A DNA stretch of 64,000 nucleotides from Candidatus Hydrogenedens sp. (GCA_049968235.1 JBMFRC010000010.1:32001-96000); one strand, 5' to 3'. Counted from the stretch's first letter, positions 1-48,540 are shown. Notes: generated from the letters alone by a model not told the origin. Made by a program: numbers and translations.

Positions 1-30
1 ATATTTGAAAGTGGGTTCGGAGAAGAATAA

Positions 31-1782
31 ATGGAAAAGATTTATCATGGAATACCTGTATCCCCTGGCATTGTTTGGGGTGAAGCTCTTGTATATGACC
101 CGGGAGTTATCAATATTCCACGATTCAAAATTAAAAATCCCAGAGAAGAATACAAAAGAGTTCAGTCGGCGATAGATTTAACTAAAGAGGAATTAACGCT
201 TCTTTACAAAAAGACCCTTGAAAATTCTGGGAACAAGCAAGCGGGTATTTTCGATGTACATTTAATGCTTCTTGAAGATGAAACAATATTAGTAGAATTG
301 AAAAGGCGAATTCATGAAGAATTATTAAATGCTGAGTCCGTCTTGCATGACATTGCTAAAAAGTATTCGAAGGACATACAATCTACCGGCAATTCATTTA
401 TCGAAGAACGGTCAGCGGATGTGATTGATGTCATTGACCGGATTATTAGAAATCTTTTAGCACAGAAGCGACCTGACCTTGATAATATTAAGAAACCCTG
501 TATTCTTTTGTCCGTGGATTTGCCTCCGTCAGAAACTGCGCGCTTGCATCCCGAAAAAATTCGTGCCATAGTTCTTGAGAGAGGTAGTGCTACTTCCCAT
601 GTAGCGATATTAGCGAGGTCATTAAAAATTCCTACAATTGTTGGTGTAAGTAATCTATTTAACACATATACGAGTGTTATAAAAGGGTCAGCCGTTGATG
701 CTATTTCAGGCATATTGTATATTAATCCCACTTCTGAAACTATTCTGAAATTACGACAGAAGAAAATTCAACTATCGAGACGATTTTTACAATATGAAAA
801 GAGAATAATATCTTATCCTTCCCAAACATTAGATGGTAGGCGAATATCTGTTCTTGCGAATATTGAACTTCCCCATGAAGTGGATGATAATGTAAAGCAT
901 TTATCCGCAGGTATAGGTCTATATAGAACCGAATATTTGTTCTTGAATAAACCGGAGCCTCCCACGGAAGAGGAACAATATAAAGAGTATTTATATGTTG
1001 CAAAAACATTAAATCCCTTACCAGTAATATTAAGAACTATTGATATTGGTGGAGATAAATTAGCAAGTTATACGAATTTTATAAAAGAACAAAATCCACA
1101 ATTGGGTTGTAGAGCAGTTCGTTTTTGTCTTGTTCATAAAGATTTTTTTAAGACACAACTTCGTGCTATGTTGCGTGCTGCGACGATTGGGAATATTAAA
1201 ATCATGTTTCCTATGATTAGTAGCATTGATGAACTTCGTGATGTAAAAAAAATCTTACAAGAAGTAAAAGACGAATTGACCTCGGAGAAAATTCCTTTTA
1301 ACAAAGAGCCTGAAATCGGAATTATGATAGAAGTTCCTTCTGCTGTTTTAATAGCAGATGAATTAGCCAAAGAGTGTAATTTTTTCAGCATTGGCACAAA
1401 TGACTTGATACAGTATTCGCTGGCTGTTGATAGAAATAATGAAAATATTGCTCATCTCTACGACCCAACCCATCCTGCAATACTTCGTATGTTGAAAATG
1501 ACCGTTTCTTCCGCTATAAAAGCCAATATATTTTGTAGTATTTGTGGGGAAATGGCAAGCGACCCGTTATTTACAGAGTTTCTTATTGGTTTAGGACTGG
1601 ATAGTTTAAGTATGTCAAGTGTATCTATTCCTCAAATAAGAGCGTTGATAACTAAAATCACATATACGGAGACGACAGAATTTTCGGAAAAAGTATTGAA
1701 ATGTGCTTCTTCCAAGGAGGTTCGGAGTATATTAAAAGAGAGAATTAATACAAAATTTAAAAATATCGTTTCTATAGTTTAA
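31..1782 (+). CDS. ptsI: Phosphoenolpyruvate-protein phosphotransferase (PTS Enzyme I)
   Basis: 583 aa. Phospho-His region SATSHVAILARSLKIPTIVG and C-terminal PEP-utilizing motif CGEMASDP. N-terminus is EI-like with no GAF domain, so PtsI rather than PtsP. Confidence 0.85.
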   Translation: MEKIYHGIPVSPGIVWGEALVYDPGVINIPRFKIKNPREEYKRVQSAIDLTKEELTLLYKKTLENSGNKQAGIFDVHLMLLEDETILVELKRRIHEELLNAESVLHDIAKKYSKDIQSTGNSFIEERSADVIDVIDRIIRNLLAQKRPDLDNIKKPCILLSVDLPPSETARLHPEKIRAIVLERGSATSHVAILARSLKIPTIVGVSNLFNTYTSVIKGSAVDAISGILYINPTSETILKLRQKKIQLSRRFLQYEKRIISYPSQTLDGRRISVLANIELPHEVDDNVKHLSAGIGLYRTEYLFLNKPEPPTEEEQYKEYLYVAKTLNPLPVILRTIDIGGDKLASYTNFIKEQNPQLGCRAVRFCLVHKDFFKTQLRAMLRAATIGNIKIMFPMISSIDELRDVKKILQEVKDELTSEKIPFNKEPEIGIMIEVPSAVLIADELAKECNFFSIGTNDLIQYSLAVDRNNENIAHLYDPTHPAILRMLKMTVSSAIKANIFCSICGEMASDPLFTEFLIGLGLDSLSMSSVSIPQIRALITKITYTETTEFSEKVLKCASSKEVRSILKERINTKFKNIVSIV

Positions 1783-1795
1783 ATGTGTTTTGTTT

Positions 1796-2971
1796 ATGCA
1801 ATCTCATCCTATTCAAAAAAAGAAAATAACTATATTAGGCTCTACGGGTTCAATCGGTCGTAGTGCATTAGAAGTTATTCGTTCTTTCCCGGAACAGTTT
1901 CAGGTTGTGGGATTGTCAGCATATTCTAATATAGAATTATTAAAGAAACAGATACGAGAGTTTAACCCACAATACATCACTGTTTTTAATGAAAAGAGTA
2001 TCCATGAACTTCGTGATGAATTTTCTAATTTAGTCATATATTCAGGGATAGAAGGGTTAAAGCAAATTTCCTCTATTAAGGTGAATATTGTTTTGTGTGC
2101 CCTTGTAGGTGCTGTAGGTTTGGAACCATTATTAACGGCTATAGAGAGTGAAAATGATGTTGCTCTTGCGAATAAAGAACCTTTAGTAATGGCAGGGGGA
2201 TTGATAACTCAAAAGGCAAATAGTACCTCCGTAAAACTTATTCCGGTAGATAGTGAACATAGTGCTATATTTCAATGTTTAATAGGTCATGATATAAATA
2301 CAGTAGAAAAGATATATTTAACCGCATCCGGAGGACCTTTTTATAATAGGTCAATAAAAGAATTGGAAAATGTAACTCCTGAAGAAGCAATAAAACATCC
2401 CACATGGGACATGGGTAAAAAAATTAGTGTTGATTCCGCAACGTTAATGAATAAGGGATTAGAAATTATTGAGGCGATGTGGTTGTTTGGATTGAGAGAA
2501 GATAAAATTGATGTGGTGATACACCCGCAGAGTGTTATCCATGGACTTGTAGAATTTTCAGATGGGAATATGCTTGCACATATGGGTCCTACGGACATGA
2601 AAGTACCTATTTTATTTTCTTTTACATATCCAGAAAGGGCGTTAAAACCCCTTAAAAGGATTAACATAAAGGAACTGTCTGATTTAAGTTTCGATTACCC
2701 TGATGAAAGAAAATTCCCTTGCTTAAAATTAGCAAGAACCGTTGCTAAAAAAGGGGGATTGCACCCCACTGTTTTAAATGCATCTAATGAAGTAGCGGTT
2801 CAGGCTTTTTGCGAAGGAAAAATCCGTTTTACGGATATATATAGAATTGTAGATAAAACACTTGAAGAACATTCATATACGAATTGTAAAGATTATACTT
2901 TAGAGATAATATTAAACATTGACCGGGAAGTAAGAAAAAAATCACTTGAAATAATCAAAAAATTAACATAA
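1796..2971 (+). CDS. dxr: 1-deoxy-D-xylulose 5-phosphate reductoisomerase
   Basis: NADPH-binding motif ILGSTGSIGRSALEVI near the N-terminus; NKGLEIIEA motif; about 390 aa. The ORF track starts at a TTG at 1790; the ATG at 1796 (MQSHPIQ) is the likelier start. Confidence 0.85.
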   Translation: MQSHPIQKKKITILGSTGSIGRSALEVIRSFPEQFQVVGLSAYSNIELLKKQIREFNPQYITVFNEKSIHELRDEFSNLVIYSGIEGLKQISSIKVNIVLCALVGAVGLEPLLTAIESENDVALANKEPLVMAGGLITQKANSTSVKLIPVDSEHSAIFQCLIGHDINTVEKIYLTASGGPFYNRSIKELENVTPEEAIKHPTWDMGKKISVDSATLMNKGLEIIEAMWLFGLREDKIDVVIHPQSVIHGLVEFSDGNMLAHMGPTDMKVPILFSFTYPERALKPLKRINIKELSDLSFDYPDERKFPCLKLARTVAKKGGLHPTVLNASNEVAVQAFCEGKIRFTDIYRIVDKTLEEHSYTNCKDYTLEIILNIDREVRKKSLEIIKKLT

Positions 2972-2986
2972 AGATAGGAAGATATA

Positions 2987-4684
2987 ATGCTGTTCAGTAT
3001 ACTTGTTTTTATAGTTGTTTTGAGTATCTTAATTTTTGTTCATGAATTGGGTCATTTTGTATCTGCTAAACTTTGCAATATATATGTGGACCAATTTAGT
3101 ATTGGTATGCCACCACGGTTAGTTGGTATAAAAATAGGAGAAACAGATTATTGTATTGGTGCTTTGCCTATAGGTGGATATGTAAAAATGGCGGGTCAGG
3201 AAGATGTCCCCTTAGATGAAAAAGAGCGAGAAGAAACTTATGGACATGTTCCACAAGAACGTTGGTTCAAGTTCCGTCCTCTCTGGCAAAGATACATAGT
3301 TATTATTAGCGGACCTTTTATGAATTTTGTTCTCGCTATTATTATTTATATCATTCTTGTTTCTAAAGGAACCTTAATGCCTGAAATGGAAGTGGATTCA
3401 AAGATAGGTAAGGTTGAGGAAAATAGTCCTGCTTTTCATGCTCCACTTTTTTTATATGATGAGATGAGAAATGATAGAAAGGAATACACAGGAAACCCTG
3501 AAGAAACAGGTTGGAAAACAGGAGACCGTATTCTCTCTATTAATGGGAATACTGTAAGGAAATTTAGTGATTTATTTGTAAATGCTACATTGGGAGGTTT
3601 TTCCGATGAACACAAAGTAATCCTTGAAAGAGAATATGTTGATGGGACAATTAAAAAATATATATCTTTTATAAAGCCTGAAATTATAGAAGGAAGTGAA
3701 CTTCCTCGTTATGGCGTAGCTCCTTTCTATTCTGCATTATTAAAGGAAGTAATCAAAGATATGCCTGCCGAAGAGGCTGGTCTAAAGGAAGGAGATATAA
3801 TTTTTTCTGCGAATGGGATTTTAGTTGACCGTACCACTTTTGTTGAACTTACAGAAAAAGCACCTGCCAATCAACCTATCTCCCTTATAATCATTAGAGA
3901 TGGAAAAAAGCAAAATATTCAGGTTGTGCCTGTGACGGTAGGTAGATTGCGGGGAATTAGTCTGTTAGAAACATCCGGTTCCCGAGACGATAGGAAAGGG
4001 TTAGTTGTTGTAGATATAGAATTGGAAATGCAAAAGAAGACAGGTTTGCGGAGAAAAGATATTATCACTAAAATTAATGGGGAATATTTTTCTATTGACA
4101 AACTCCATCAATTTGAGAGAGAACATGCAGGAGAAACCATTGAATTAGAAGTGTATCGACCACCGGTAATATTTGGACTCCTTGAAAAGTCGTCTACATT
4201 AAAGTTAAAGGTTACATTAGACCCGGTACAAGCAATAGGAGTAGCCTTAGGAGAAAAATTGGTAAAGGTAGATTATCCTGTTTCGCAATGGTTGCCTGAA
4301 GCATTTAAACGAAGTTATGATGATTTAAAGCAGACGATTCTTGTCTTAAAGGGCTTAATCGTAGGTGCGGTTAGTCCTAAAGTTTTGGGAGGTCCTATCA
4401 TGATTTTTGATGCTACTTCTAAAGCGGCTAATATGGGCATAGATTGGTTATTAGGTCTAATGGCTCTGGTAAGTGTAAATCTTGCTGTTGTAAATCTGTT
4501 GCCTATACCGATTCTTGATGGTAGCCTTGTCTTCATATTAACTATTGAATCTATAATGAAAAGACCATTGAGCCCTAAAATACAAGAGCGAATACAACAA
4601 ATAGGTTTTGTTATAATAATATTACTTCTCCTATTGGTTAGTTGGAATGATATAAGACGAATTATAAGTGATATTATTCCCTAA
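2987..4684 (+). CDS. rseP: RIP site-2 zinc metalloprotease RseP with PDZ domains
   Basis: HELGHF zinc motif in the first transmembrane region, internal PDZ-like segments, C-terminal NLLPIPILDGS motif. RBS AGGAAG upstream. dxr-rseP adjacency is a common conserved arrangement. Confidence 0.8.
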   Translation: MLFSILVFIVVLSILIFVHELGHFVSAKLCNIYVDQFSIGMPPRLVGIKIGETDYCIGALPIGGYVKMAGQEDVPLDEKEREETYGHVPQERWFKFRPLWQRYIVIISGPFMNFVLAIIIYIILVSKGTLMPEMEVDSKIGKVEENSPAFHAPLFLYDEMRNDRKEYTGNPEETGWKTGDRILSINGNTVRKFSDLFVNATLGGFSDEHKVILEREYVDGTIKKYISFIKPEIIEGSELPRYGVAPFYSALLKEVIKDMPAEEAGLKEGDIIFSANGILVDRTTFVELTEKAPANQPISLIIIRDGKKQNIQVVPVTVGRLRGISLLETSGSRDDRKGLVVVDIELEMQKKTGLRRKDIITKINGEYFSIDKLHQFEREHAGETIELEVYRPPVIFGLLEKSSTLKLKVTLDPVQAIGVALGEKLVKVDYPVSQWLPEAFKRSYDDLKQTILVLKGLIVGAVSPKVLGGPIMIFDATSKAANMGIDWLLGLMALVSVNLAVVNLLPIPILDGSLVFILTIESIMKRPLSPKIQERIQQIGFVIIILLLLLVSWNDIRRIISDIIP

Positions 4685-4720
4685 TTGTAATAACCATAAC
4701 TAAAAATAAAAGGAATAAGA

Positions 4721-6031
4721 ATGGGTGCAATTACATGTAAATTTGGTGGAACTTCACTTGCCGATGCTAATTGTATTAAAAAAGTAAAAGAGATAATACT
4801 TTCATCGAGTAATCGTAGATTTATTGTTCCTTCGGCTCCAGGTAAAAGGGATTCTAAAGATAAAAAAATTACAGACCTTTTATATCTCTGGTATGAAATT
4901 GCACGCGAAGGTTTGGATGCATCTGAACCTGAAAGAATTATCAGAGAGCGTTTTAATACGATTGTATCAGAACTTTCCTTATCTATTGATATAAATAAAG
5001 AAATAGATGAAATATCTAAAAATGCAGGTGTTTTTAAGTCACCCGATTATATGGCTTCAAGGGGAGAATATCTAAATGGGAGAATTATTGCAGAATATTT
5101 AGGGGCAACATTTATAGACCCTGCTAAATGTATATTTTTTAATGAATCAGGCTTTTTGGATACAAGAACATATAATATATTAGGGGAACAATTGCAGGGG
5201 TCAGGACTTTTTGTAGTCCCTGGTTTTTATGGTTCAATGCCGGATGGTAACATAAAAACATTTCCGAGAGGTGGTAGTGATATAACGGGTGCTATTGTAG
5301 CCCGTGCCAGTAAATCTATACTTTATGAGAATTGGACGGATGTTAATGGTTTCCGTATGGCTGACCCTAAAATCGTTCCTGATGCAAAAAGGATAGAGGA
5401 AATAACTTATCAGGAATTGCGAGAACTTTCCTATATGGGAGCAACGGTTTTACATGATGAATCTATTTATCCTGTTCTTGAAATGGGAATCCCCATACAT
5501 ATTAAGAATACACATGAACCTGAGAATCCGGGAACTATGATTGTTAAAAGTAGAGTGCCTAAAGGTCCGGTGTGTGGGATTGCGGGATTAGGTGGATTTA
5601 GTATGATTAATATTGAGAAAACCTTTATGAACAAAGAAAGAGGTTTTGGTCTAAAGGTTTTGTCCGTTCTTGATGAATTTGATGTTCGTTGGGAACATAT
5701 GCCTACCGGTATTGACACAATGTCTGTAATCATCCGTAATAATGAATTAGGAAATAAGGGACAACTAATTGTAGATGCCATTAAGAAAAGATGTAATACA
5801 GATGAGGTAAACATTACAAAAGGTCTTGCAATGATTGCTACTGTAGGGTTGGGAATGAATCATCATATTGGCGTTGCAGCAAGATTATGTTCTGCACTTG
5901 CCCAAGCACAGGTAAATATTCGAGTTATTGACCAGGGGTCATCAGAAATGAATATCCTTATAGGCGTAGATGAATCTGATTTAAATAAATCTATCAAATC
6001 TATTTATGATGCCTTTGAAGACTGGGTGTAA
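4721..6031 (+). CDS. lysC: Aspartate kinase
   Basis: N-terminal KFGGTSLADANCIKKV kinase motif, VVPGFYG segment, C-terminal ACT-like region; 436 aa. Confidence 0.8.
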   Translation: MGAITCKFGGTSLADANCIKKVKEIILSSSNRRFIVPSAPGKRDSKDKKITDLLYLWYEIAREGLDASEPERIIRERFNTIVSELSLSIDINKEIDEISKNAGVFKSPDYMASRGEYLNGRIIAEYLGATFIDPAKCIFFNESGFLDTRTYNILGEQLQGSGLFVVPGFYGSMPDGNIKTFPRGGSDITGAIVARASKSILYENWTDVNGFRMADPKIVPDAKRIEEITYQELRELSYMGATVLHDESIYPVLEMGIPIHIKNTHEPENPGTMIVKSRVPKGPVCGIAGLGGFSMINIEKTFMNKERGFGLKVLSVLDEFDVRWEHMPTGIDTMSVIIRNNELGNKGQLIVDAIKKRCNTDEVNITKGLAMIATVGLGMNHHIGVAARLCSALAQAQVNIRVIDQGSSEMNILIGVDESDLNKSIKSIYDAFEDWV

Positions 6032-6091
6032 ATAGACCTGTATACATTATATTTCCCTTTAATAAAATCTAACTGAAAAGGCTTTTTATTT

Positions 6092-7546
6092 ATGCGTGGA
6101 ACTAAAATTATTTGTACTATGGGTCCGGCTACAAATGATGAAACTATTATTAAATCCCTTATCAATGCAGGTATGGATGTAGCACGTTTAAATCTTTCCC
6201 ATGGGACACATGACTATCATAAAGAAATGTATACGAAAATTCGTTCCGTCGCTAAAGAAACAGGGAAAGATATTGCCGTTTTATTTGATTTGCAAGGTCC
6301 TAAAATTAGGACGGGGTTTTTAGAAAATCACCAACCCATAGAATTAATTCGTGGCGAACATATTATTATTACATCAGAGCAAATTATTGGAAATACAAAG
6401 ATTATTTCCACAGATTATTCTCTTTTACCGGAAGAAGTAAAACCAGGGAATCGAATACTCTTAGCCGATGGTACCTTAGAACTTAGGGTAATTGAATCTC
6501 GCCCTCCAGAGATTGATTGCGAGATTATAAGAGGAGGTATATTGGGCGAAAGGAAAGGGATGAATTTACCTGAAATACCTATCAAACTTCCATCATTAAC
6601 AGAAAAAGATTGGGATGACCTTGATTTTGGAATTAGTTTAGGTGCGGATTATTTTGCTTTATCCTTTGTTCGTACACCGGAGGATGTTACACAGGTCAAA
6701 AAGCGATTACAGGATAAAAACAGTATTGCGAAAGTTGTTGCAAAAATAGAACGTCCCGAAGCACTACGATGTATTAATAGTATTATAGAGGTATCGGATG
6801 CATTACTAATTGCACGAGGAGACCTTGCCGTAGAGACAATACTTGAAGAAGTACCATTAGTACAAAAAAGAATTATTCGTAAATGTAATCTTGCAGGAAT
6901 TCCGGTTATCACAGCGACACAAATGCTGGAATCTATGACAGAACATCCTATACCTACGCGTGCGGAGATGTCTGATGTTGCAAATGCAGTTCTTGATGGA
7001 ACCGATGCAGTTATGTTGTCTGCGGAAACAGCGACAGGTAAAAATCCCATATCGGCTGTTGAAGTAATGGATAAAATAATTCGTTGTGTAGAGAAAGACC
7101 AGAGTTATTTCGAATGTCCTTTTGATGAGATGTGTAAATCTCCATTGTTGAAGCAAGACAATAAAGAATTTCACAGTAAGATTGAAGATACTGCTATAGC
7201 CTCAGGTAAAGCGGTAAAACAATTAGTAATGGCCCTAAATACAAAGGCAATTGCCTGCTTTACCTATTCAGGATATTCTGCAATGGCAATTTCTAATTCG
7301 CGACCTAAGGTTCCTATTTATGCTTTAACTCCTAATGAAAGTGTAGCAAGACAATGCTCTCTATTTTGGGGTGTTCAGGCAATAAAACTTCCTGAAGTGC
7401 AATCTATTGAAGACATGCTTCTTACCGTTGAAAAAACTCTAATAACAAAGAAATTAGTTAAACGAGGTGATATGGTAATAATTGTAGCAGGCTATCCTTT
7501 GTCAGTTGCATGTCCTACAAATCTTATAAAGGTGCATGTTATTTAA
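6092..7546 (+). CDS. pyk: Pyruvate kinase
   Basis: N-terminal MRGTKIICTMGPAT, typical pyruvate kinase domain layout, 484 aa. Confidence 0.85.
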   Translation: MRGTKIICTMGPATNDETIIKSLINAGMDVARLNLSHGTHDYHKEMYTKIRSVAKETGKDIAVLFDLQGPKIRTGFLENHQPIELIRGEHIIITSEQIIGNTKIISTDYSLLPEEVKPGNRILLADGTLELRVIESRPPEIDCEIIRGGILGERKGMNLPEIPIKLPSLTEKDWDDLDFGISLGADYFALSFVRTPEDVTQVKKRLQDKNSIAKVVAKIERPEALRCINSIIEVSDALLIARGDLAVETILEEVPLVQKRIIRKCNLAGIPVITATQMLESMTEHPIPTRAEMSDVANAVLDGTDAVMLSAETATGKNPISAVEVMDKIIRCVEKDQSYFECPFDEMCKSPLLKQDNKEFHSKIEDTAIASGKAVKQLVMALNTKAIACFTYSGYSAMAISNSRPKVPIYALTPNESVARQCSLFWGVQAIKLPEVQSIEDMLLTVEKTLITKKLVKRGDMVIIVAGYPLSVACPTNLIKVHVI

Positions 7547-7555
7547 TGGGACTTT

Positions 7556-8299
7556 ATGAATAGACAGGAATGGTATATATCTGCCTTTGAAGAATGGTAT
7601 CCAATTATTTACCAACATAGAGATGCAAAAGAAGCCCGGAAACAGGTCACGTTTGCGTATTCAGAATTAAATTTGCATTATAACAGCAAAACTCTGGATT
7701 TATGCTGTGGTTATGGTAGGCATTTAGTTTTTTTGTCTGAGAAAATATCATTTGTAGTGGGTTATGACTTATCATTATACTTGCTAAAAACAGCACAGCG
7801 TCTTTTACCCAATAAAATATCTCTTGTAAGAGGGGATGTGCGATATTTACCTTTTTCTCCTAAAAGTTTTGATGCTGTTTTGAACTTTTTCACAAGTTTT
7901 GGCTATTTTGAGGAAGATAGAGAAAATGTTCGTCAGATAGAACAGGTTTCGTTTGTTTTGAAGAATAAAGGGAAATTCTTATTTGATTATCTAAATTCGA
8001 TACAGGTACAAAAAATAAAAAATGTCATAACAGAGAAAACATATAAGACGTATATAATAAAAGAAAATCGTTGTTATGATGAAAGTAAAAAAGAACTTAG
8101 AAAAGATGTTTCTATTTATTTAAATAATCAACTAAAAAAATTTTATACTGAAAGAGTCAGGGTATATAGCCTTGAAGAAATATTAAAAATGTTCTCATCT
8201 CAAAATTTATGCATTCAAAAAATATATGGCAATTACAATAAGGAACCATATACGGAAGAAAGTCCAAGACTTATAATTGTCGGGGAGAAAAATGAATAA
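7556..8299 (+). CDS. Class I SAM-dependent methyltransferase (candidate N-methyl-bacillithiol methyltransferase, NmbA-like)
   Basis: SAM-binding motif I LDLCCGYGRHLVFL; 247 aa. Its stop overlaps the start of bshC, indicating translational coupling. The functional assignment is inferred from gene context only. Confidence 0.5.
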   Translation: MNRQEWYISAFEEWYPIIYQHRDAKEARKQVTFAYSELNLHYNSKTLDLCCGYGRHLVFLSEKISFVVGYDLSLYLLKTAQRLLPNKISLVRGDVRYLPFSPKSFDAVLNFFTSFGYFEEDRENVRQIEQVSFVLKNKGKFLFDYLNSIQVQKIKNVITEKTYKTYIIKENRCYDESKKELRKDVSIYLNNQLKKFYTERVRVYSLEEILKMFSSQNLCIQKIYGNYNKEPYTEESPRLIIVGEKNE

Positions 8300-9809
8300 T
8301 CTGTTTCAGGATTTTTTACTATCCAAAAATGAGTTAAGAGAGTTTTTTCCATGGCTACCTGTTGACGGAATAAAAAAAATAAATGATTATATCAATAATA
8401 ACTACAAGTTTATAGAAAAAAAACATATCGCATCACCTGTGATAATAACGGGACAACAACCTGCTGTCTTTGGTGGACCTCTATATACTATTTATAAAAT
8501 AATTACAGTTATTCAATTATCCTCATTGCTACATAATAATTATGGAATTAAAACTCAACCGATTTTCTGGGTTCATTCGTGGGACCACGACTGGGAAGAA
8601 GTCTGTTATACGAATTTTCTTACTTATAACTATGAAATATACCCGTTTAGGTTTAATCCTGATAATAATGAAAAGGGAAAACCTTTATATAAACTAAAAT
8701 TGGACAAAGATTTTATAGAAGCACAAATACCTGAAATTTTCAAGAATGTTAAAGGTTCTGAATTTGCTTCTCGATGGCAGGATTTTCTTCTAAATTCAAT
8801 ATCTTCGTGTGACACTCTTTCGGATTGGTCTGTAAATATTCTAAAACAAATATTCAAAGATGAAAACCTTTGTTGGTTTGAACCCCATAATGCAAAGGAT
8901 TTTAAAATTTTACAGCAGGTCATGGAAATATCTATTGATAATCATTCCTTATTATTTGAACATTTTAATAAAACAACAAGTCTTTTAAAAGAAACAGGTT
9001 ATAAACCTCAGGTGCATAAATTACCTGACAATGCGTTCTTTTTCCTTGAAGAAAATAATTATAGGAGTAGACTTAAATTCCACGATGGCGTTTTTTATTC
9101 TGAAATATCAAAAAGAAAATATGCTGTTTCTGAGATAAAACGTATATTACATTATGAACCGGAACGCTTCTCCCCTAATCTTTTATTAAGGTGTATTTAT
9201 CAACAGATGATTTTTCCCGTAGTAGTTTATGTTGGGGGACCTGCAGAAGTTGCTTATTGGGCTCAGTTAAAAGATTTATTTTTATTTTTTAACTTGCCTA
9301 TGCCGATTGTATATCCTCGCAAGAGGTTAATATTATTACCTTCTAAAATAAAAAAATGGCTTTCAGAATTAAACATAAATGTATATAATTTACCTCAAAT
9401 ATACGATAATATAAAAGATAATAAATCTTTTGTTATATCAGATAGTCTAAATAGTGAGATAGAAAAAACTAAAATAAAGTTTATAGATAATGCGATGTCA
9501 TTCTTTGATAATTTAATTACGATATTTAATGATAAATCTTTAGATAATTACCGCAAAACATATTTATCAAAAATGGAATTTGAGGCACAACGATTGATTG
9601 ATAATTTCACCAAATTACAGAGAAATAAAAATGAGATATTTCAGAAGCATCTTACTCATATATTGAATACAATTTATCCAAATAGTTTAGAACAGGAACG
9701 GTTTTTTTCGCCCTTTTCTTTTATCCCGGAATATAGCCATGATTTTATTAAAATGATAATGAATAAAACAGATGTTATAGATTTTGATATAGGGATTGTA
9801 GAGATATGA
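8292..9809 (+). CDS. bshC: Bacillithiol biosynthesis cysteine-adding enzyme BshC
   Basis: About 510 aa. N-terminal ITGQQPAVFGGPLYTIYKI resembles the BshC TGQQ...GPLYT signature. Followed directly by bshB and bshA. The ATG at 8292 (MNNLFQ) lies inside the end of the upstream methyltransferase; the ORF track starts earlier at 8277. Confidence 0.6.
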   Translation: MNNLFQDFLLSKNELREFFPWLPVDGIKKINDYINNNYKFIEKKHIASPVIITGQQPAVFGGPLYTIYKIITVIQLSSLLHNNYGIKTQPIFWVHSWDHDWEEVCYTNFLTYNYEIYPFRFNPDNNEKGKPLYKLKLDKDFIEAQIPEIFKNVKGSEFASRWQDFLLNSISSCDTLSDWSVNILKQIFKDENLCWFEPHNAKDFKILQQVMEISIDNHSLLFEHFNKTTSLLKETGYKPQVHKLPDNAFFFLEENNYRSRLKFHDGVFYSEISKRKYAVSEIKRILHYEPERFSPNLLLRCIYQQMIFPVVVYVGGPAEVAYWAQLKDLFLFFNLPMPIVYPRKRLILLPSKIKKWLSELNINVYNLPQIYDNIKDNKSFVISDSLNSEIEKTKIKFIDNAMSFFDNLITIFNDKSLDNYRKTYLSKMEFEAQRLIDNFTKLQRNKNEIFQKHLTHILNTIYPNSLEQERFFSPFSFIPEYSHDFIKMIMNKTDVIDFDIGIVEI

Positions 9810-10513
9810 ATGATATAGATATTTTAGCATTCGGAGCCCACCCGGACGATGTTGAATTGGGGATTGGAGGAATTTTAGCAAAATGTGTCCAGAATGGTTT
9901 AAAAGTGGGTATTATTGATTTAACACGGGGAGAAATGAGTTCTCGTGGAACAGTTGAAGAAAGAAGATTAGAGGCAGAAGAAGCAGGAAAAATAATTGGA
10001 ATATCTTTAAGAGATAATCTTTATCTAAAAGATTCAGAGGTTCAGAATGTTCCTGAACAAAGATTGCCTGTTATTTCTACTATCAGGAAATATCGTCCCA
10101 AAATTATTTTTGCTACTATGAATGAAGATAAACATCCTGACCATCACAATGCCCATTTTTTAATAAAAGAATCTAATTATTTTTCAGGCTTATTCAAAAT
10201 CAAAACAGAATACGAACCTTATCGTTGTCCAACATTACTTTTTTACTACCCCTATTATGAAGTCCGGTCTCCTAATTTTATTGTTGATATTTCAGAGTAT
10301 TATGATAGGAAAATAAATGCTTTAAAAGCACATCGCTCACAATTTTTTAATCCTGGATATTCAGGAAATAAAACTTTTATTTCTTCCGAGAGATTCTGGC
10401 ATAGTATTCGGGACCGATGTGCGTATTGGGGAAGTAGAATTAATGTGTCTTATGCTGAAACGATTTTTAGTATAGAACCTGTAAATTTATCATCACTTAA
10501 AATAATTATTTGA
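9806..10513 (+). CDS. bshB: N-acetyl-alpha-D-glucosaminyl L-malate deacetylase BshB (LmbE/PIG-L family)
   Basis: N-terminal DILAFGAHPDDVELGIGGILAK closely resembles BshB1/LmbE metal-binding motifs. The start overlaps the bshC stop as ATGA. Confidence 0.75.
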   Translation: MNDIDILAFGAHPDDVELGIGGILAKCVQNGLKVGIIDLTRGEMSSRGTVEERRLEAEEAGKIIGISLRDNLYLKDSEVQNVPEQRLPVISTIRKYRPKIIFATMNEDKHPDHHNAHFLIKESNYFSGLFKIKTEYEPYRCPTLLFYYPYYEVRSPNFIVDISEYYDRKINALKAHRSQFFNPGYSGNKTFISSERFWHSIRDRCAYWGSRINVSYAETIFSIEPVNLSSLKIII

Positions 10514-10514
10514 C

Positions 10515-11663
10515 ATGAAAGATATAAAAGAAAAATTAAAGATTGGTATTAGTTGTCATACCTCTACAGGAGGTAGTGGGATTGTAGCAACGGAACTGGG
10601 TTTAGCACTTTCTTCACGAGGACATGAAGTTCATTTTGTAGCAGATAACATTCCGTTCCGATTGAGGGATAATATTGAGAATGTTTTTTGTCATATTGTC
10701 GAACCTGTAAATTATCCTGTATTAAATCAGCCTCCTTATTATCTGGCTATGGCATCACGAATTGCAGAAGTCGTAGAAGAACATAATATCCAGATATGGC
10801 ATGCTCATTACGCAATACCTCATGCAAGTATTGCCTTACTTGCAAAAGAAATGTTACCGCCAGAGTTAAAATTCTGCCTTATAACTACTCTTCATGGCAC
10901 AGATATAACGATTGTAGGAGCAGACCCGTCATTGTATCGAATAACAAAATATGCAATGGAACATAGCTGTGCAATAACTGCGGTATCTAATTGGTTAAAA
11001 TATGAAACGGAGCGGGAATTTCAATTATCTAAACCTGTTCATACAATACACAACTTTATAGACCCTTCCCGTTTTCATACAAAAAATAAGGTGCGTATTC
11101 CTTTTATGGAGAAAAATAAAAAAGTAGTTATGCATATTTCTAATTTCAGAGCGGTCAAAAGAGTCACCGATGTAATTCGTGTTTTTAAAAAGATTTCCGA
11201 TAAGATGGATGCTCAACTAATCATGGTTGGGGAAGGACCCGAAAAAGTCTCTTCCGTTGGGGTTGCAAGGCAATTAGGTATATTAAATAAGGTAAAATAT
11301 ATAGGTAATTATCATAATATTGAGGAACTTTTACCTCATGCTGATTTAGTATTACAACCCAGTGAGCATGAAAGTTTCGGAATGGTGGCATTAGAAGCCA
11401 TGGCATCGGGTGTTCCTGTTATCGCTACCAAAAGTGGTGGGATACAGGAATTAATTATTGATGGAGAAACAGGTTTTTTGTGTGAAGTAGGAGATATAGG
11501 AACTATGGCTGATTGGGCTATTCAAATTCTATTTGATAAAAAATTAAAGACAGAGATTGGAAAAAAGAGTAAAGAGAGAGTAAAAAAATATTTTAGTGTT
11601 GATAAAATAATACCTCAGTATGAAAAGTTATATATAGACACAATAAATAAATACAAAAGATAA
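10515..11663 (+). CDS. bshA: N-acetyl-alpha-D-glucosaminyl L-malate synthase BshA (GT4 glycosyltransferase)
   Basis: N-terminal KIGISCHTSTGGSGIVATELGLALSSRGHEVHFV strongly resembles the BshA N-terminus. C-terminal GT4 segment FGMVALEAMASGVPVIAT. Confidence 0.8.
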   Translation: MKDIKEKLKIGISCHTSTGGSGIVATELGLALSSRGHEVHFVADNIPFRLRDNIENVFCHIVEPVNYPVLNQPPYYLAMASRIAEVVEEHNIQIWHAHYAIPHASIALLAKEMLPPELKFCLITTLHGTDITIVGADPSLYRITKYAMEHSCAITAVSNWLKYETEREFQLSKPVHTIHNFIDPSRFHTKNKVRIPFMEKNKKVVMHISNFRAVKRVTDVIRVFKKISDKMDAQLIMVGEGPEKVSSVGVARQLGILNKVKYIGNYHNIEELLPHADLVLQPSEHESFGMVALEAMASGVPVIATKSGGIQELIIDGETGFLCEVGDIGTMADWAIQILFDKKLKTEIGKKSKERVKKYFSVDKIIPQYEKLYIDTINKYKR

Positions 11664-11667
11664 TACT

Positions 11668-12579
11668 ATGGGAAACAAAAACATCATAAAAATTGGTATC
11701 TTTTACGACGGTAATTTCTTTTTTCATGTCAGCACCTATTATAGATATGTTCATCCACCGCGTAAGAGAATTTCTATTGATGGACTGCATGAGTTTATTC
11801 GCAATAGGGTTGCGGAATTTGAAAATACAGATAAGCGATATGTCCATATAGTAACTTCTCACTTTTTTAGAGGCAGATTATCGGCTAAAGATGCGGAACT
11901 CGAAGGTAAATTGTATTCTGAACGTGTTTTTGAAGATATATTAATGAGTGAAGGTGTTGTTACACATTATCTGCCTATAAAGACAAGAAGTGAGAAACGG
12001 CATGAAACGGGAATTGATGTATGGTTTGCATTAGAAGCCTATGAAGCGGTTGTGCATAAAGAATTGGATATAGTTGTGTTAATCACGGGAGATGCTGATT
12101 TTATTCCTTTGGTAAAAAAAGCACAGTCAGCAGGGGCAAAAGTTATGATTTTAGGATGGGATTTTAAATATACCGATGAAACAGGGATTGAACAGTCTAC
12201 ATTAACATCAATGGAACTTTTGAATGTCTCCACCTATCCTCTAAAAATGCATTTAATAATTGAGGAAGGATTGCAAAAAGATGCTCCTGAAATCCTAAGT
12301 CTATTTTTTGAACTAAAAGAAGAGACACAGAATAACCATGTGAAATCCTATATGAAAGGAAAAATTCACTCGTTGAAAGAAGGATATGGATTTATATCAT
12401 CCCCTGAATTTCCCAATAATGTTTTCTTCCATTATTCTGCTTTATCCAATCATAATTATCAAGATTTAAGCATCGGTCAGAATGTGGAATTTCTTATCCG
12501 GGAAACAGAAAAAGGAATCGTAGCACATCCTGTTATTGTAATTGATAATCCCTATAACGAGAATAATTCAATGAAGTAA
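11668..12579 (+). CDS. NYN (LabA-like) domain protein with C-terminal cold-shock OB-fold domain
   Basis: NYN-like core with ITGDADFIPLVKKAQ. The C-terminus KGKIHSLKEGYGFISSP...FFHYSAL is a cold-shock-domain-like RNA-binding module. Confidence 0.55.
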   Translation: MGNKNIIKIGIFYDGNFFFHVSTYYRYVHPPRKRISIDGLHEFIRNRVAEFENTDKRYVHIVTSHFFRGRLSAKDAELEGKLYSERVFEDILMSEGVVTHYLPIKTRSEKRHETGIDVWFALEAYEAVVHKELDIVVLITGDADFIPLVKKAQSAGAKVMILGWDFKYTDETGIEQSTLTSMELLNVSTYPLKMHLIIEEGLQKDAPEILSLFFELKEETQNNHVKSYMKGKIHSLKEGYGFISSPEFPNNVFFHYSALSNHNYQDLSIGQNVEFLIRETEKGIVAHPVIVIDNPYNENNSMK

Positions 12580-12581
12580 TT

Positions 12582-13649
12582 TTATTTTTCTTTTTCAAGT
12601 TCATCCTGCCAGGGAAGTTCTTCTATTTTCTCTATTTGTGTCCCTTTTACAGGATGCCATCTTTTGTTGTTGGGAGTAACCGATACCCATTCATACTCAC
12701 CTGTGCCCGGATATAATGAATACAGTTTTCCACCTTTTGGCACATAATCAGAGCCATACCCACCTTTTCCTGTTGCTCTTCCGTAAATTAAATCTACCCC
12801 CTCAATGATGCCTGAATAATCATTTACATGGTCGTGTCCGCAAATACATGCTTTTAGTCCCGGGATTTTCTTTATAAATGCTAACGATTCACCTTGTTCT
12901 TTTTCGTAACATACATTTTCAAATTTAACACCTGATGCTATTTTATTTTCCCATATAGTATGGTATTGATATATAGGGATATGACAAGCCATAAATGTTG
13001 GAATAACATTTATATTTTCTTTGCACCATTGGTCAATCCATTGTCTTTGTTCATTCATTAATCCATATTTGTTGCTATTTAAGCAGACAAATCTCCACAA
13101 TTTTTGATTGGATTCGTTTTCAATTATCACTTGGTAATTGCCTTCATTTATTCCACCTCGATACATAGAGTTTTTAGCGGAGGCTAATATATCATGTCCT
13201 TTGCTGTAATCTGATAACATATCATGATTGCCCCATGTATAAAACCAGGAAATGTTCAAAGAACCAAAAAATTCTACTGCTTCCTCTAAATACATTAAAC
13301 CTCTTCCAAAAGCATTTTCATTCCAGACATCGCCAGTTATTGCTAATAGATGGGGTTGTGTAAGGTCTAATAATTTCTTAATAATATCTCGAGTTGTATT
13401 ATCCACATTCTTATCTCTACGATAAGGATTAAAATGTATGTCTGTTATTTGTAATAATTGTATCGATTTTGGATTCCCCTGTATTTTCAATGTGTAAGAA
13501 TCTTCTTTAACAGTTTCTGATTTTTGCATTCCAACGAGGATTTTCAGCTCTTTTTTCTTAGCCCATACTCTTTTCATATTTAAGACTGTAAATGTTCCAA
13601 CTAAACTGGAAGCAATAAAAAATCTTCGTGTAATTTTTTCATTCTTCAT
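12582..13649 (-). CDS. Secreted calcineurin-like metallophosphoesterase (Tat signal)
   Basis: N-terminal twin-arginine signal RRFFIASSLVG; metallophosphoesterase motifs GDVWNE and TWGNHDM. Confidence 0.65.
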   Translation of the reverse strand: MKNEKITRRFFIASSLVGTFTVLNMKRVWAKKKELKILVGMQKSETVKEDSYTLKIQGNPKSIQLLQITDIHFNPYRRDKNVDNTTRDIIKKLLDLTQPHLLAITGDVWNENAFGRGLMYLEEAVEFFGSLNISWFYTWGNHDMLSDYSKGHDILASAKNSMYRGGINEGNYQVIIENESNQKLWRFVCLNSNKYGLMNEQRQWIDQWCKENINVIPTFMACHIPIYQYHTIWENKIASGVKFENVCYEKEQGESLAFIKKIPGLKACICGHDHVNDYSGIIEGVDLIYGRATGKGGYGSDYVPKGGKLYSLYPGTGEYEWVSVTPNNKRWHPVKGTQIEKIEELPWQDELEKEK

Positions 13650-13722
13650 ATTAGTCTCCTTCTATTGTTTTTGTTTTTTTATAATATATGAAAATCTACC
13701 AAGAATAAAACCGGATATTTAT

Positions 13723-14580
13723 ATGAAACAAATTTTTTTACCTATAAATTCTTTAATAAGACTATCTATATATGATTTTGGTGTTAAAGGACCACCTATA
13801 ATTTTTTGCCATTTTACAGGCGGGCTGGGAAAATTATGGAAAAATGTTATTACCCCTTTAAGAAATAATTATCATTGTTTTGCCTTCGATGCGAGGGGGC
13901 ATGGGGATTCTTCCAAACCTTTAGAAATGAAATATTATGACTGGAATGAGCATCTCTCTGATTTAATTGCTGTGGTTAAATATATAAAAAAATTATCAAA
14001 TTCAGATTGTATATTTGGTGTTGGGCATTCATTCGGTTCTGCCTGTTTATCTCAGGCTGTTATTAAAACTAAGAAATATATTTCATGGAAAAAAATTATC
14101 CTTATAGAACCTATTTTAGGTCCTGATACATTTGATTTTAGAAAATCTAAAATGTCTGAAATTGCACAAAAAAGACGCGGATATTTTGAATCGGAAAAAC
14201 AAATTGATACAATATTGCGGAATAAACAACCTTATAGGAATTGGGATATTGAGTCATGGAATATATTTAAAGAATGTGGCTTTACAACTAATGCGAGTGG
14301 AAAATATTATTTAAAGTGTACTCCTGAAATAGAATCCTATCAATATCTTTATGGTAATCCTTTGGGCTGGTTTGAACAATTAAAAAAAATAGATATTCCT
14401 GTTCTTTTAATTTATGGTAAAAATAGTGAGCTGTTACCTTTGGGTATCTACCAGTTAGAACAAATAAAAAATTCTTATTTAATGAAAATTCCGGAAGTCG
14501 GTCACTTTTTCCCACAAGAAAAACCTTCATTCCTTGCTAATATAATAAAAAATTGGTTTTCCTTTGAAAATAATTGTTGA
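13723..14580 (+). CDS. Alpha/beta-fold hydrolase
   Basis: Nucleophile elbow GVGHSFGSA (GxSxG), HGDS segment; 285 aa. Confidence 0.65.
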   Translation: MKQIFLPINSLIRLSIYDFGVKGPPIIFCHFTGGLGKLWKNVITPLRNNYHCFAFDARGHGDSSKPLEMKYYDWNEHLSDLIAVVKYIKKLSNSDCIFGVGHSFGSACLSQAVIKTKKYISWKKIILIEPILGPDTFDFRKSKMSEIAQKRRGYFESEKQIDTILRNKQPYRNWDIESWNIFKECGFTTNASGKYYLKCTPEIESYQYLYGNPLGWFEQLKKIDIPVLLIYGKNSELLPLGIYQLEQIKNSYLMKIPEVGHFFPQEKPSFLANIIKNWFSFENNC

Positions 14581-14634: not shown

Positions 14635-15201
14635 ATGCAAAAGTTAATTTATTTACAACCAAATATTTTTATTATTTTAATCCTTGTTTCTGTCTTCTCT
14701 CTCCGAGTTTTTTCTGATGAAACATGTGAGACAAAAAGTAGTGGTTTGAAAATAAGATTGGAATTGGGTTCATCTTTCAGGATTGCTCATGATAGTAATG
14801 ATATTGATGGTTATTTAATTTCTTCTTTTGTTGATATCGGTAAAGAACTCTCCCCTCGAACAAATTTATCTTTAAGACTATTACCTGTTTTCGGTTATAT
14901 TCAGGAAAAAAATATGGAAGATATAATAGGGTTTGGAATTGGCGGTGCTTTAAGAATTTATTTTAAAAAGAATCAGGAAAAAGGATTTTTTACAGAGATA
15001 CATGAAATTGTTTGTTTGCATGAAAACAAATTTGAAGGAAATGATTCTAATGTTAATTTCTATTCGGCAATCGGCATTGGTTATCAATTCTGCCCTAACT
15101 GGGATATGTTATTAAGATTTGGTCATATTTCGAATGCGGGGATAAAAGACGAAAATGAAGGAACAAATCTTTTAGGTTTTGGCGTGGGATATACATTTTA
15201 G
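14635..15201 (+). CDS. PagL-like lipid A 3-O-deacylase outer membrane protein
   Basis: Signal peptide, about 190-aa beta-barrel-sized protein. The motif RFGHISNAG matches the PagL catalytic His/Ser motif (H-x-S-N-A-G). Confidence 0.5.
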   Translation: MQKLIYLQPNIFIILILVSVFSLRVFSDETCETKSSGLKIRLELGSSFRIAHDSNDIDGYLISSFVDIGKELSPRTNLSLRLLPVFGYIQEKNMEDIIGFGIGGALRIYFKKNQEKGFFTEIHEIVCLHENKFEGNDSNVNFYSAIGIGYQFCPNWDMLLRFGHISNAGIKDENEGTNLLGFGVGYTF

Positions 15202-39988: not shown

Positions 39989-40486
39989 ATGGGAACAAAA
40001 GGTAGAGAAATCGTAAAAATGGATGTTGAACATCTATTACTTCTTTTAAATAAAGCCTATTCTGATGAATGGTTTGCTTATTATCAATATTGGTTAGGCG
40101 CAAAGGTCGCAAAAGGACCTATGAAAGAGGCAGTCATGGCAGAACTTTTGCAACATGCAGGAGATGAACTCAGACATGCAGATATGGTAGCCCTGAGAAT
40201 AATCCAATTAGGTGGTTCTCCCGTAGAAAGTCCGAAACAGTGGTATGAAATGTCTAATTGTAGTTATGACCCACCATCTGACCCGTATGTTCGCGTTCTT
40301 CTGGAACAGAATATTAAAGGCGAACAGTGTGCTATACAAACTTATAATGCACTCCTTGCGGAAACTAAGGAGGGAGACCCCGTAACTTATAATATGGTTT
40401 TACAAATACTTCAAGATGAAGTTATGCACGAAGAAGACCTTCAAGCTCTGTTGGAAGATTTGGACTTGATGACATCAAGAGGTTAA
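39989..40486 (+). CDS. Ferritin-like / Dps-family protein
   Basis: Four-helix-bundle ferritin-like pattern (YYQYWLGAKV...ELLQHAGDELRHADMVALRI) with conserved Glu/His ligand positions; 165 aa. RBS AAAGGAG upstream. Confidence 0.55.
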   Translation: MGTKGREIVKMDVEHLLLLLNKAYSDEWFAYYQYWLGAKVAKGPMKEAVMAELLQHAGDELRHADMVALRIIQLGGSPVESPKQWYEMSNCSYDPPSDPYVRVLLEQNIKGEQCAIQTYNALLAETKEGDPVTYNMVLQILQDEVMHEEDLQALLEDLDLMTSRG

Positions 40487-46316: not shown

Positions 46317-46325
46317 TGGTTTAAT

Positions 46326-48520: not shown

Positions 48521-48540
48521 TTATAGAAATTAGGTTTGAT

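What the first reader, a model, noticed from the sequence alone, without database searches (positions are those of the whole stretch)
7556..11663. SAM-methyltransferase translationally coupled to a complete bshC-bshB-bshA set: candidate N-methyl-bacillithiol pathway
Seen in sequence: four + strand genes with overlapping or abutting stop/start codons. The methyltransferase TAA lies inside the bshC ATGAATAA start; bshC/bshB overlap as ATGA; bshB/bshA are 1 nt apart. BshA, BshB and BshC are recognisable from N-terminal signatures. Established knowledge: in Bacillus the three bsh genes are usually scattered (bshA-bshB1 in one operon, bshC elsewhere), and some Chlorobi make N-methyl-bacillithiol using a dedicated SAM-dependent methyltransferase. 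Inference: a methyltransferase fused into one operon with all three bsh genes is a strong guilt-by-association candidate for a bacillithiol-modifying enzyme (N-methylation). The whole low-molecular-weight-thiol pathway would then sit in one transcription unit in this AT-rich diderm, and the MT-bshCBA linkage would be a useful genomic marker for N-Me-BSH producers.
Basis: partly seen in the sequence, partly recalled or inferred. Interest (0 to 1): 0.55.

Follow-up and report, generated by a model that had tools for sequence, protein, structure and literature searches.

The report
N-methyl-bacillithiol operon nmbA-bshC-bshB-bshA
Four tightly packed genes in this Candidatus Hydrogenedens genome encode the three enzymes that make the protective thiol bacillithiol plus a relative of NmbA, the known enzyme that N-methylates it; this is an ordinary new member of a known pathway, but the same gene linkage recurs in many phyla.

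Summary
Four + strand genes lie at 7556-11663. The methyltransferase (MT) and bshC overlap by 8 nt (ATGAATAA), bshC and bshB by 4 nt (ATGA), and bshB and bshA are 1 nt apart. BshC, BshB1 and BshA each pass NCBIfam's curated equivalog cut-off.

The 247-aa MT's best solved relative is 9RI2, the Chlorobaculum tepidum NmbA crystal structure (E 7.5e-29, end to end; next hit 1.6e-12). A profile built only from bshC-linked MTs scores CtNmbA at 227 bits and the next PDB chain at 94. Family-specific residues W16, R70, H71 and K198 are kept.

The linkage recurs. Among 77 assessable species-representative loci, 50 have bshC directly after the MT. Of these, 23 have the full nmbA-bshC-bshB-bshA order, in Acidobacteriota, Chloroflexota, Fibrobacterota, Hydrogenedentota and a Planctomycetota MAG.

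Two points need qualifying:
- The four genes sit in a ten-gene co-directional array, so "one transcription unit" is not shown.
- Paenibacillus relatives of the assayed P. polymyxa enzyme show no linkage and the C. tepidum genes have scattered locus tags, so linkage would be an insensitive marker; its specificity was not measured.

This is a new member of a known family. The four NmbA papers I read do not mention the clustering.

The parts
7556..8299 (+). nmbA homolog: class I SAM-dependent methyltransferase, 247 aa, predicted bacillithiol N-methyltransferase
   Evidence: Best PDB hit is 9RI2 CtNmbA, E 7.5e-29, full length. BLASTP 30% identity, 122 bits. Family profile versus CtNmbA 227 bits, next chain 94. 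W16, R70, H71, K198, Y134/F135 and motif I equivalents are kept. AF2 model pLDDT 94. 100% identical to an NCBI MAG protein from Candidatus Hydrogenedens sp..
8292..9809 (+). bshC: putative cysteine-adding enzyme of bacillithiol synthesis, 505 aa; start overlaps the nmbA stop by 8 nt
   Evidence: TIGR03998 at 317 bits (cut-off 266). Pfam Rossmann-like_BshC and CC_BshC. GGGGAG lies 4 nt upstream of the ATG.
9806..10513 (+). bshB (BshB1 type): GlcNAc-malate deacetylase, 235 aa; ATGA overlap with bshC
   Evidence: TIGR04001 at 251 bits (cut-off 182). Pfam PIG-L.
10515..11663 (+). bshA: GT4 glycosyltransferase (N-acetylglucosaminyl-L-malate synthase), 382 aa; 1 nt after bshB
   Evidence: TIGR03999 at 486 bits (cut-off 274).
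8282..8299 (+). nmbA/bshC junction: GGGGAG, 4 nt, then ATGAATAA (bshC start overlapping nmbA stop)
   Evidence: Read directly from the sequence. The same 8-nt overlap occurs in clade relatives L001-L004. A 4-nt overlap is the most frequent junction among the other linked loci.

Best explanation
The locus is a complete N-methyl-bacillithiol biosynthesis gene set in a Candidatus Hydrogenedens genome.

The predicted pathway runs as follows:
1. BshA couples UDP-GlcNAc to L-malate.
2. BshB removes the acetyl group.
3. BshC adds cysteine to give bacillithiol (BSH).
4. The 247-aa enzyme, an NmbA-family SAM-dependent methyltransferase, methylates the cysteine amino group of reduced BSH to give N-Me-BSH.

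The genes lie in reverse pathway order (nmbA, bshC, bshB, bshA). Their overlapping or abutting stops and starts would allow translational coupling and matched expression.

Shown here:
- the gene identities
- NmbA family membership by sequence
- the junction anatomy
- recurrence of the linkage across phyla

Inferred, not shown:
- co-transcription
- translational coupling
- the product actually made by this organism
For: - BshA, BshB1 and BshC each pass the NCBIfam equivalog cut-off.
- The MT's best solved relative is CtNmbA 9RI2, E 7.5e-29, residues 2-242 against 12-258. PMC12719100 identifies 9RI2 as CtNmbA.
- A profile of 34 bshC-linked MTs, built without CtNmbA, scores CtNmbA at 226.6 bits (E 2.3e-66) and the next chain, 1wzn, at 93.6 bits.
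- The MT meets the published identity (>25%), coverage (>80%) and length criteria for an NmbA homolog: 30% identity, 98% coverage, 247 versus 266 aa. The fourth criterion, BLAST E <= 1e-20 in a RefSeq search, could not be reproduced; the two-sequence E-value is 2e-38 at 122 bits.
- Positions that separate the family from the outgroup 1wzn are all kept: W16, R70, H71 and K198. So are motif I and Y134/F135.
- In an unbootstrapped NJ tree, CtNmbA and the Paenibacillus homologs nest among the bshC-linked MTs.
- CtNmbA and P. polymyxa NmbA methylate BSH in vitro, but not BSSB, GSH or glycine. Deleting CT1040 abolishes N-Me-BSH in vivo.
- Linkage recurs. 50 of 77 assessable species-representative loci have bshC directly downstream of the MT, and 23 have the full four-gene order. 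Flanking genes are unrelated in KSB1, Thermoanaerobaculia and a 6.5-Mb genome.
- CtNmbA matches nothing else in the window.
Against: - No chemistry was done. Identity to CtNmbA is only 30-31%, against 28% to the outgroup 1wzn, so the assignment rests on profile scores, motifs and gene context.
- Two residues listed at the CtNmbA substrate entry differ: W20 is A and H31 is Q. Both are variable across the family (W20 is S in all 12 Paenibacillus homologs).
- The fold search does not single out NmbA. 9RI2 ranks 10th, TM 0.67.
- Within the Hydrogenedens clade the whole roughly 16-kb neighbourhood is syntenic, so linkage there is not independent evidence.
- Operon boundaries are undefined.
- None of the ORFs I scanned (1-52.5 kb of the window) matched a BSH-dependent enzyme family. 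The last 11.5 kb (52.5-64 kb) was not scanned.
Confidence: 0.85

Rival explanations
1. The MT belongs to the NmbA family but acts at a different step or on a different acceptor in this lineage. It might methylate a BSH precursor or a BSH conjugate, or produce a different BSH derivative, so the end product is not N-Me-BSH.
For: The window clade is basal with KSB1 in the NJ tree, apart from the other Hydrogenedentota MTs. W20 is A and H31 is Q at the proposed entry site. Hiras et al. considered a route via N-Me-Cys and found no evidence for it. NmbA can methylate a secondary amine by-product in vitro.
Against: The same substitutions occur in Paenibacillus, whose P. polymyxa enzyme methylates BSH. 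Invariant family residues are retained. The gene is tied to bshC, which makes the known substrate.
Confidence: 0.08
2. The MT is an unrelated housekeeping methyltransferase (rRNA, quinone or similar), and its position next to bshC is just the tight gene packing of a compact genome.
For: Pfam and NCBIfam give only generic or sub-threshold hits such as UbiE/MenG (41.8 bits against a 158-bit cut-off). Many neighbouring genes are also tightly packed. Synteny inside the clade extends far beyond the four genes.
Against: The profile scores CtNmbA 133 bits above any other solved MT. MT-bshC adjacency, usually with overlapping stop and start, recurs in at least nine named phyla with different flanks.
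Confidence: 0.03
3. The genes are present but the methylation step is silent or partial, so the cell holds mainly BSH.
For: BSH is co-detected with N-Me-BSH in C. tepidum and Polaribacter. Nothing here measures expression.
Against: The MT has intact motifs, a confident fold (pLDDT 94) and conservation down to 44% identity within the syntenic clade. Its stop overlaps the bshC start, so the two are likely made together.
Confidence: 0.04

Closest known systems
NmbA (CT1040), N-methyl-bacillithiol synthase of Chlorobaculum tepidum; PDB 9RI2; Hiras et al. 2018 (PMC6282198), Hammerstad et al. 2025 (PMC12719100)
   Same: Class I SAM-MT of similar length (247 versus 266 aa), alignable end to end. Motif I xLDxxCGxGRH, the FxSFGYF block, W16, R70, H71, K198 and the C-terminal SPR(L/M) are shared. 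Both co-occur with bshA, bshB and bshC.
   Different: Only 30-31% identity. W20 is A and H31 is Q. In C. tepidum the four genes are scattered (CT1040, CT0548, CT1419, CT1558); here they form one overlapping cluster. The host phylum, Hydrogenedentota, is absent from the published survey dataset. No activity has been shown for this protein.
Paenibacillus polymyxa NmbA (PPSC2_19805), shown to methylate BSH in vitro
   Same: Homologs from 12 Paenibacillus species are on average 36% identical to the window MT and carry the same family residues. Like the window MT, they lack W20.
   Different: In Paenibacillaceae the gene is not next to bsh genes. In the three loci checked (two Paenibacillus and one Fontibacillus) it is overlapped by an MBL-fold hydrolase gene instead. 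I did not have the P. polymyxa sequence itself.
Bacillus subtilis bsh genes (bshA-bshB1 within the mgsA operon; bshC with panE/ylbQ)
   Same: The same three enzyme families by curated equivalog models.
   Different: In B. subtilis they are split over two loci, with no nmbA (PMC5790435). Here all three are contiguous, in the order C-B-A, behind nmbA.
nmbA-bshC(-bshB-bshA) clusters in Thermoanaerobaculia, Gemmatimonadota, Chloroflexota, KSB1 and others (found here)
   Same: Same gene order. bshC was detected directly downstream of the MT, most often with a 4-nt stop/start overlap.
   Different: Gemmatimonadota have only nmbA-bshC. KSB1 and some Hydrogenedentota lack bshA in the cluster. Flanking genes differ.

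Membership tests
NmbA (bacillithiol N-methyltransferase) | Significant full-length sequence similarity to CT1040, using the published criteria: identity >25%, coverage >80%, similar length, BLAST E <= 1e-20 | tested here: met
   BLASTP gives 30% identity, 98% coverage, 122 bits, two-sequence E 2e-38. phmmer against PDB gives E 7.5e-29. The criteria are quoted. The E-value criterion depends on database size, so the bit score is the comparable number.
NmbA (bacillithiol N-methyltransferase) | Closer to NmbA than to any other characterised methyltransferase | tested here: met
   CtNmbA is the top PDB hit. The next hit is 16 orders of magnitude weaker. With a family profile the scores are 227 versus 94 bits. 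No reciprocal search in the C. tepidum genome was possible.
NmbA (bacillithiol N-methyltransferase) | Class I SAM-MT core with motif I (VLDIAxGxG type) and aromatic Y134/F135 for adenine | tested here: met
   TLDLCCGYGRH at residues 46-56. Y117/F118 are invariant in 88 family sequences. The AF2 model shows a Rossmann-like core.
NmbA (bacillithiol N-methyltransferase) | [quoted passage not shown] | tested here: inconclusive
   W16, R70 and K198 are kept and are near-invariant across the family. W20 is A and H31 is Q, but both positions vary in the family (W20 is S in 12/12 Paenibacillus). No mutational data define which residues are essential.
NmbA (bacillithiol N-methyltransferase) | Unusual narrow 'basket' Cap domain topology seen in the 9RI2 crystal | tested here: inconclusive
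   The AF2 model (pLDDT 94) has a four-strand cap. It matches CypM, 3D2L and 1Y8C better (TM about 0.8) than 9RI2 (TM 0.67, rmsd 6.6). The authors report that AlphaFold mispredicts this cap even for CtNmbA itself, so the tool cannot decide.
NmbA (bacillithiol N-methyltransferase) | Co-occurrence with bshA, bshB and bshC in the same genome | tested here: met
   All three lie directly downstream and pass their equivalog cut-offs.
NmbA (bacillithiol N-methyltransferase) | [quoted passage not shown] | not testable with these tools
   Needs an enzyme assay or thiol profiling.
Bacillithiol biosynthesis BshA/BshB/BshC | Each protein scores above the curated equivalog cut-off of its TIGRFAM/NCBIfam model | tested here: met
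   TIGR03999 486/274, TIGR04001 251/182, TIGR03998 317/266 bits.
Operon (single transcription unit) of the four genes | Co-transcription from one promoter, with no internal terminator | tested here: inconclusive
   Overlaps or 1-nt gaps between the four genes make co-transcription likely. The promoter/terminator scan is at shuffle level (59 versus 63.9; 11 versus 7.3), and the unit may extend to upstream pyk and the downstream NYN/CSD gene.

The most novel reading that the evidence does not exclude
The nmbA stop / bshC start overlap recurs in at least nine named phyla, even where bshA and bshB lie elsewhere (for example Gemmatimonadota). This could reflect more than co-regulation. NmbA and BshC may work as a physical or kinetic pair, with NmbA taking BSH directly from BshC. 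The BshC reaction has never been reconstituted in vitro, and its open active site has been suggested to admit a partner protein (PMC5790435). Co-expressed nmbA-bshC pairs from these compact clusters might give a handle on that unsolved step. This is speculation from gene context only.
Probability: 0.1. Interest if true: 0.6.

Novelty: new member of a known kind. Interest (0 to 1): 0.3.

Why it matters
- It extends the predicted range of N-methyl-bacillithiol to Candidatus Hydrogenedentota. No paper in the searched library mentions both Hydrogenedentes and bacillithiol, and the 2025 survey dataset does not list the phylum.
- It gives independent support, from gene context, for the functional assignment of the NmbA family outside Chlorobi, Bacteroidota and Bacillota.
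- It shows that nmbA-bshC, and often the whole nmbA-bshC-bshB-bshA set, is a recurrent and probably translationally coupled module. The four NmbA papers I read do not mention it.
- In practice the linkage could help annotate 'class I SAM-dependent methyltransferase' genes in MAGs as nmbA.
- A compact four-gene cassette could be useful for heterologous production of N-Me-BSH.
- It is not a surprise to a specialist: the enzyme, the pathway and its wide distribution are already published.

Tried and rejected
- **Promoter/terminator scan of 1-14000:** counts equal those of shuffles, so it cannot define operon boundaries.
- **Fold search of the AF2 model against PDB:** it places the MT in the four-strand-cap N/C-methyltransferase group but does not single out NmbA. 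This fits the published mismatch between AlphaFold and the crystal in the cap, so I did not use it as membership evidence.
- **First structure job with alignment A2:** I repeated it with A3.
- **Pfam scan of the ORFs at 15.7-52.5 kb, adding to the earlier scans of the array genes at 4.7-12.6 kb, for BSH-dependent enzymes (DinB/BstA, bacilliredoxin, YpdA/Bdr):** none found. The ORFs at 52.5-64 kb were not scanned.
- **Percent identity alone:** it does not separate NmbA from the outgroup (31% versus 28%), so I rejected it as a criterion in favour of profile scores and family-specific positions.
- **Literature searches for any report of nmbA-bsh clustering or of bacillithiol in Hydrogenedentes:** nothing found. 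The library lacks most subscription papers.
- **UbiE/MenG-type quinone methyltransferase:** considered and rejected, since the scores are far below the cut-offs.
Full report
**1. The observation**

- The methyltransferase (MT) ORF runs 7556-8299, with TAA at 8297-8299.
- The bshC ATG is at 8292, so ATGAATAA gives an 8-nt overlap. A GGGGAG motif lies 4 nt upstream of that ATG.
- bshC and bshB overlap as ATGA at 9806-9809.
- bshA starts 1 nt after the bshB stop.

The identities do not rest on N-terminal signatures. Each protein passes NCBIfam's curated equivalog cut-off: BshC TIGR03998 at 317 bits (cut-off 266), BshB1 TIGR04001 at 251 (182), and BshA TIGR03999 at 486 (274). The MT matches only generic class I SAM-methyltransferase models, and its UbiE/MenG scores are far below the cut-offs.

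The MT is 100% identical to an NCBI protein from a Candidatus Hydrogenedens sp. MAG. That genus belongs to the phylum Candidatus Hydrogenedentota in the FCB group.

**2. What the methyltransferase is**

- A phmmer search of all PDB sequences returns 9RI2_A first (E 7.5e-29, residues 2-242 against 12-258). The next hit is 1wzn at 1.6e-12.
- 9RI2 is the CtNmbA crystal structure of Hammerstad et al. 2025 (PMC12719100).
- BLASTP gives 30% identity over 98% of the MT, 122 bits. This meets the identity (>25%), coverage (>80%) and length criteria those authors used to call NmbA homologs. Their E-value criterion depends on database size and could not be reproduced here.

I then built a profile from 34 MTs chosen only because bshC lies next to them, with CtNmbA left out. 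That profile hits CtNmbA end to end at 226.6 bits (E 2.3e-66). The next solved chain scores 93.6 bits.

In an alignment of 88 family members:
- W16, R70, H71 and K198 (CtNmbA numbering) are near-invariant, differ in the outgroup 1wzn, and are all kept in the window protein.
- Motif I and the adenine-stacking Y134/F135 are also kept.
- W20 is A and H31 is Q in the window protein. Both positions vary across the family. W20 is S in all 12 Paenibacillus homologs, the genus whose P. polymyxa enzyme methylates BSH in vitro.

An unbootstrapped NJ tree nests CtNmbA and the Paenibacillus proteins among the bshC-linked MTs, well away from the outgroup. Percent identity alone does not discriminate: 31% to CtNmbA against 28% to 1wzn.

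The AF2 model is confident (pLDDT 94). Foldseek ranks 9RI2 only tenth (TM 0.67), behind CypM, 3D2L and 1Y8C. The authors report that AlphaFold mispredicts the cap-domain topology even for CtNmbA, so I treat the fold test as inconclusive.

**3. Whether the linkage recurs**

*Within the Hydrogenedens clade.* In relatives with MT identity of 67-44%, the whole neighbourhood is syntenic: GH57, HPr, ptsI, dxr, rseP, aspartate kinase, pyruvate kinase, MT, bshC, bshB, bshA, NYN/CSD. This shows conservation but is not independent evidence for MT-bshC coupling.

*Outside the clade.* Independent evidence comes from loci with unrelated flanks. A KSB1 MAG and a 6.5-Mb genome have MT-bshC-bshB, and a Thermoanaerobaculia MAG has MT-bshC-bshB-bshA.

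*Species-representative genomes.* A scan with the family alignment returned the best 80 of at least 525 relatives. I searched these with tblastn and a BshC HMM. Of the 80 loci, 77 had enough downstream sequence to assess, and 50 of those have bshC directly after the MT.

| Arrangement | Loci | Where |
|---|---|---|
| nmbA-bshC-bshB-bshA | 23 | 16 Acidobacteriota, 3 Chloroflexota, 1 each Fibrobacterota, Planctomycetota MAG, Hydrogenedentota and an unclassified MAG |
| nmbA-bshC-bshB | 2 | Hydrogenedentota |
| nmbA-bshC only | 25 | 21 Gemmatimonadota, 1 each Latescibacterota, Calditrichota, a Bacillota MAG and a Hydrogenedentota contig that ends inside bshC |
| No bsh gene within the flank | 27 | 18 Bacillota, 3 Ignavibacteriota, 1 Bacteroidota, 1 Sumerlaeota, 4 unclassified |

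Four of the 25 nmbA-bshC loci are cut by a contig end, so they may extend further.

The MT stop and the bshC start most often overlap by 4 nt, and by 8 nt in the window's own clade. In the type organism the genes are scattered, as the locus tags show: CT1040, CT0548, CT1419 and CT1558.

Linkage is therefore good positive evidence where it is found, but it would be an insensitive marker. Its specificity was not measured. The sample is also biased towards sequences similar to this MT.

**4. How it most likely works**

By established pathway knowledge (PMC5790435; PMC6282198; PMC12719100):
1. BshA makes GlcNAc-malate.
2. BshB deacetylates it.
3. BshC adds cysteine to give BSH.
4. NmbA uses SAM to methylate the cysteine amine of reduced BSH. 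It does not act on BSSB, GSH or glycine.

The window encodes all four steps in reverse pathway order, with overlapping or abutting stop and start codons. This is consistent with co-transcription and translational coupling.

Shown: gene identities, NmbA family membership by sequence, junction anatomy, and cross-phylum linkage. Inferred: co-transcription, coupling, and the thiol actually made.

The four genes are embedded in a ten-gene co-directional array with gaps of 60 nt or less. The consensus promoter/terminator scan is at shuffle level. The transcription unit may therefore be larger than four genes.

**5. Comparison with what is known, and novelty**

NmbA was defined genetically in 2018 and biochemically and structurally in 2025. 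A RefSeq survey already predicts it in 1765 species. That survey was limited to 43 validly published phyla. Its dataset contains no Hydrogenedentota, and no paper in the library mentions Hydrogenedentes together with bacillithiol.

None of the four NmbA papers mentions an operon, adjacency, neighbourhood or synteny. The supplements of the 2025 paper do not contain 'operon', 'gene cluster' or 'adjacent' either. Other searches found nothing on nmbA-bsh clustering. The library lacks most subscription journals, so this absence is not proof.

I class the finding as a new member of a known kind. It adds one modest general observation: nmbA-bshC is a recurrent, probably translationally coupled module.

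**6. The most novel reading not excluded**

The BshC reaction has never been reconstituted in vitro, and a missing protein partner has been suggested. The persistent nmbA/bshC overlap, even where bshA and bshB lie elsewhere, could reflect a physical or kinetic NmbA-BshC pair. This rests on gene context alone. I give it about 0.1.

**7. Verdict**

Confidence that this is an N-Me-BSH locus with an NmbA-type methyltransferase is about 0.85. Interest is about 0.3.

Noticed in passing
L015:8744-9751, L031:8735-9733, L063:8735-9715: In Paenibacillaceae the nmbA homolog is overlapped by 4 nt by a roughly 330-aa metallo-beta-lactamase-fold hydrolase (Lactamase_B + B_lactamase-like_C) instead of bshC. 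Glyoxalase-II-type thiolesterases share this fold, so it could be a BSH-linked partner.
   Followed up: partly
L057:8738-9334, L067:4473-5069, L080:4149-4721: In Ignavibacteria and Kapaibacteria the nmbA homolog is overlapped by 4 nt by a conserved-length ORF of about 195 aa with no Pfam match.
   Followed up: partly
window 31-12579 (+): Ten co-directional genes with gaps of 60 nt or less: ptsI, dxr, rseP, aspartate kinase, pyruvate kinase, nmbA, bshC, bshB, bshA, NYN+cold-shock-domain. The whole block, plus the downstream metallophosphoesterase, hydrolase and PagL genes, is syntenic in relatives down to 44% MT identity.
   Followed up: partly
window 8292-9809: BshC (505 aa) aligns to the TIGR03998 and Pfam BshC models only from profile position about 75-84 (query residue 47). 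Its N-terminal roughly 46 residues are shorter and more divergent than the Bacillus type, and other loci also match only from about residue 50.
   Followed up: no
window 11668-12579 (+): A fusion protein with an NYN (RNase-like) domain and a cold-shock domain starts 4 nt after bshA. It is conserved in that position in the Hydrogenedens clade only.
   Followed up: no
window 7556-8299 and loci L008, L009, L014, L037: In the NJ tree the window clade's MT groups with KSB1, apart from the MTs of the other Hydrogenedentota MAGs. There may be two NmbA lineages in the phylum, or cassette transfer. The tree has no bootstrap support.
   Followed up: no
window 40483-41967 (-): A 494-aa protein combining a NUDIX domain with a metallo-beta-lactamase domain.
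   Followed up: no
window 45159-51441 (+): A cell-envelope cluster: radical SAM/SPASM protein, GT4 glycosyltransferase, WecA-like Glycos_transf_4, and a 966-aa protein with a Wzy_C O-antigen-ligase domain. Together with PagL at 14635-15201 (assigned from the syntenic gene in relatives), this fits a diderm envelope.
   Followed up: no
PMC12719100 supplementary dataset, Gemmatimonadota rows: For Candidatus Palauibacter irciniicola, two of the four listed accessions are consecutive (WP_419858893.1 and WP_419858894.1). This fits adjacent genes, although the paper does not comment on it. The Palauibacter locus L038 has nmbA-bshC.
   Followed up: no
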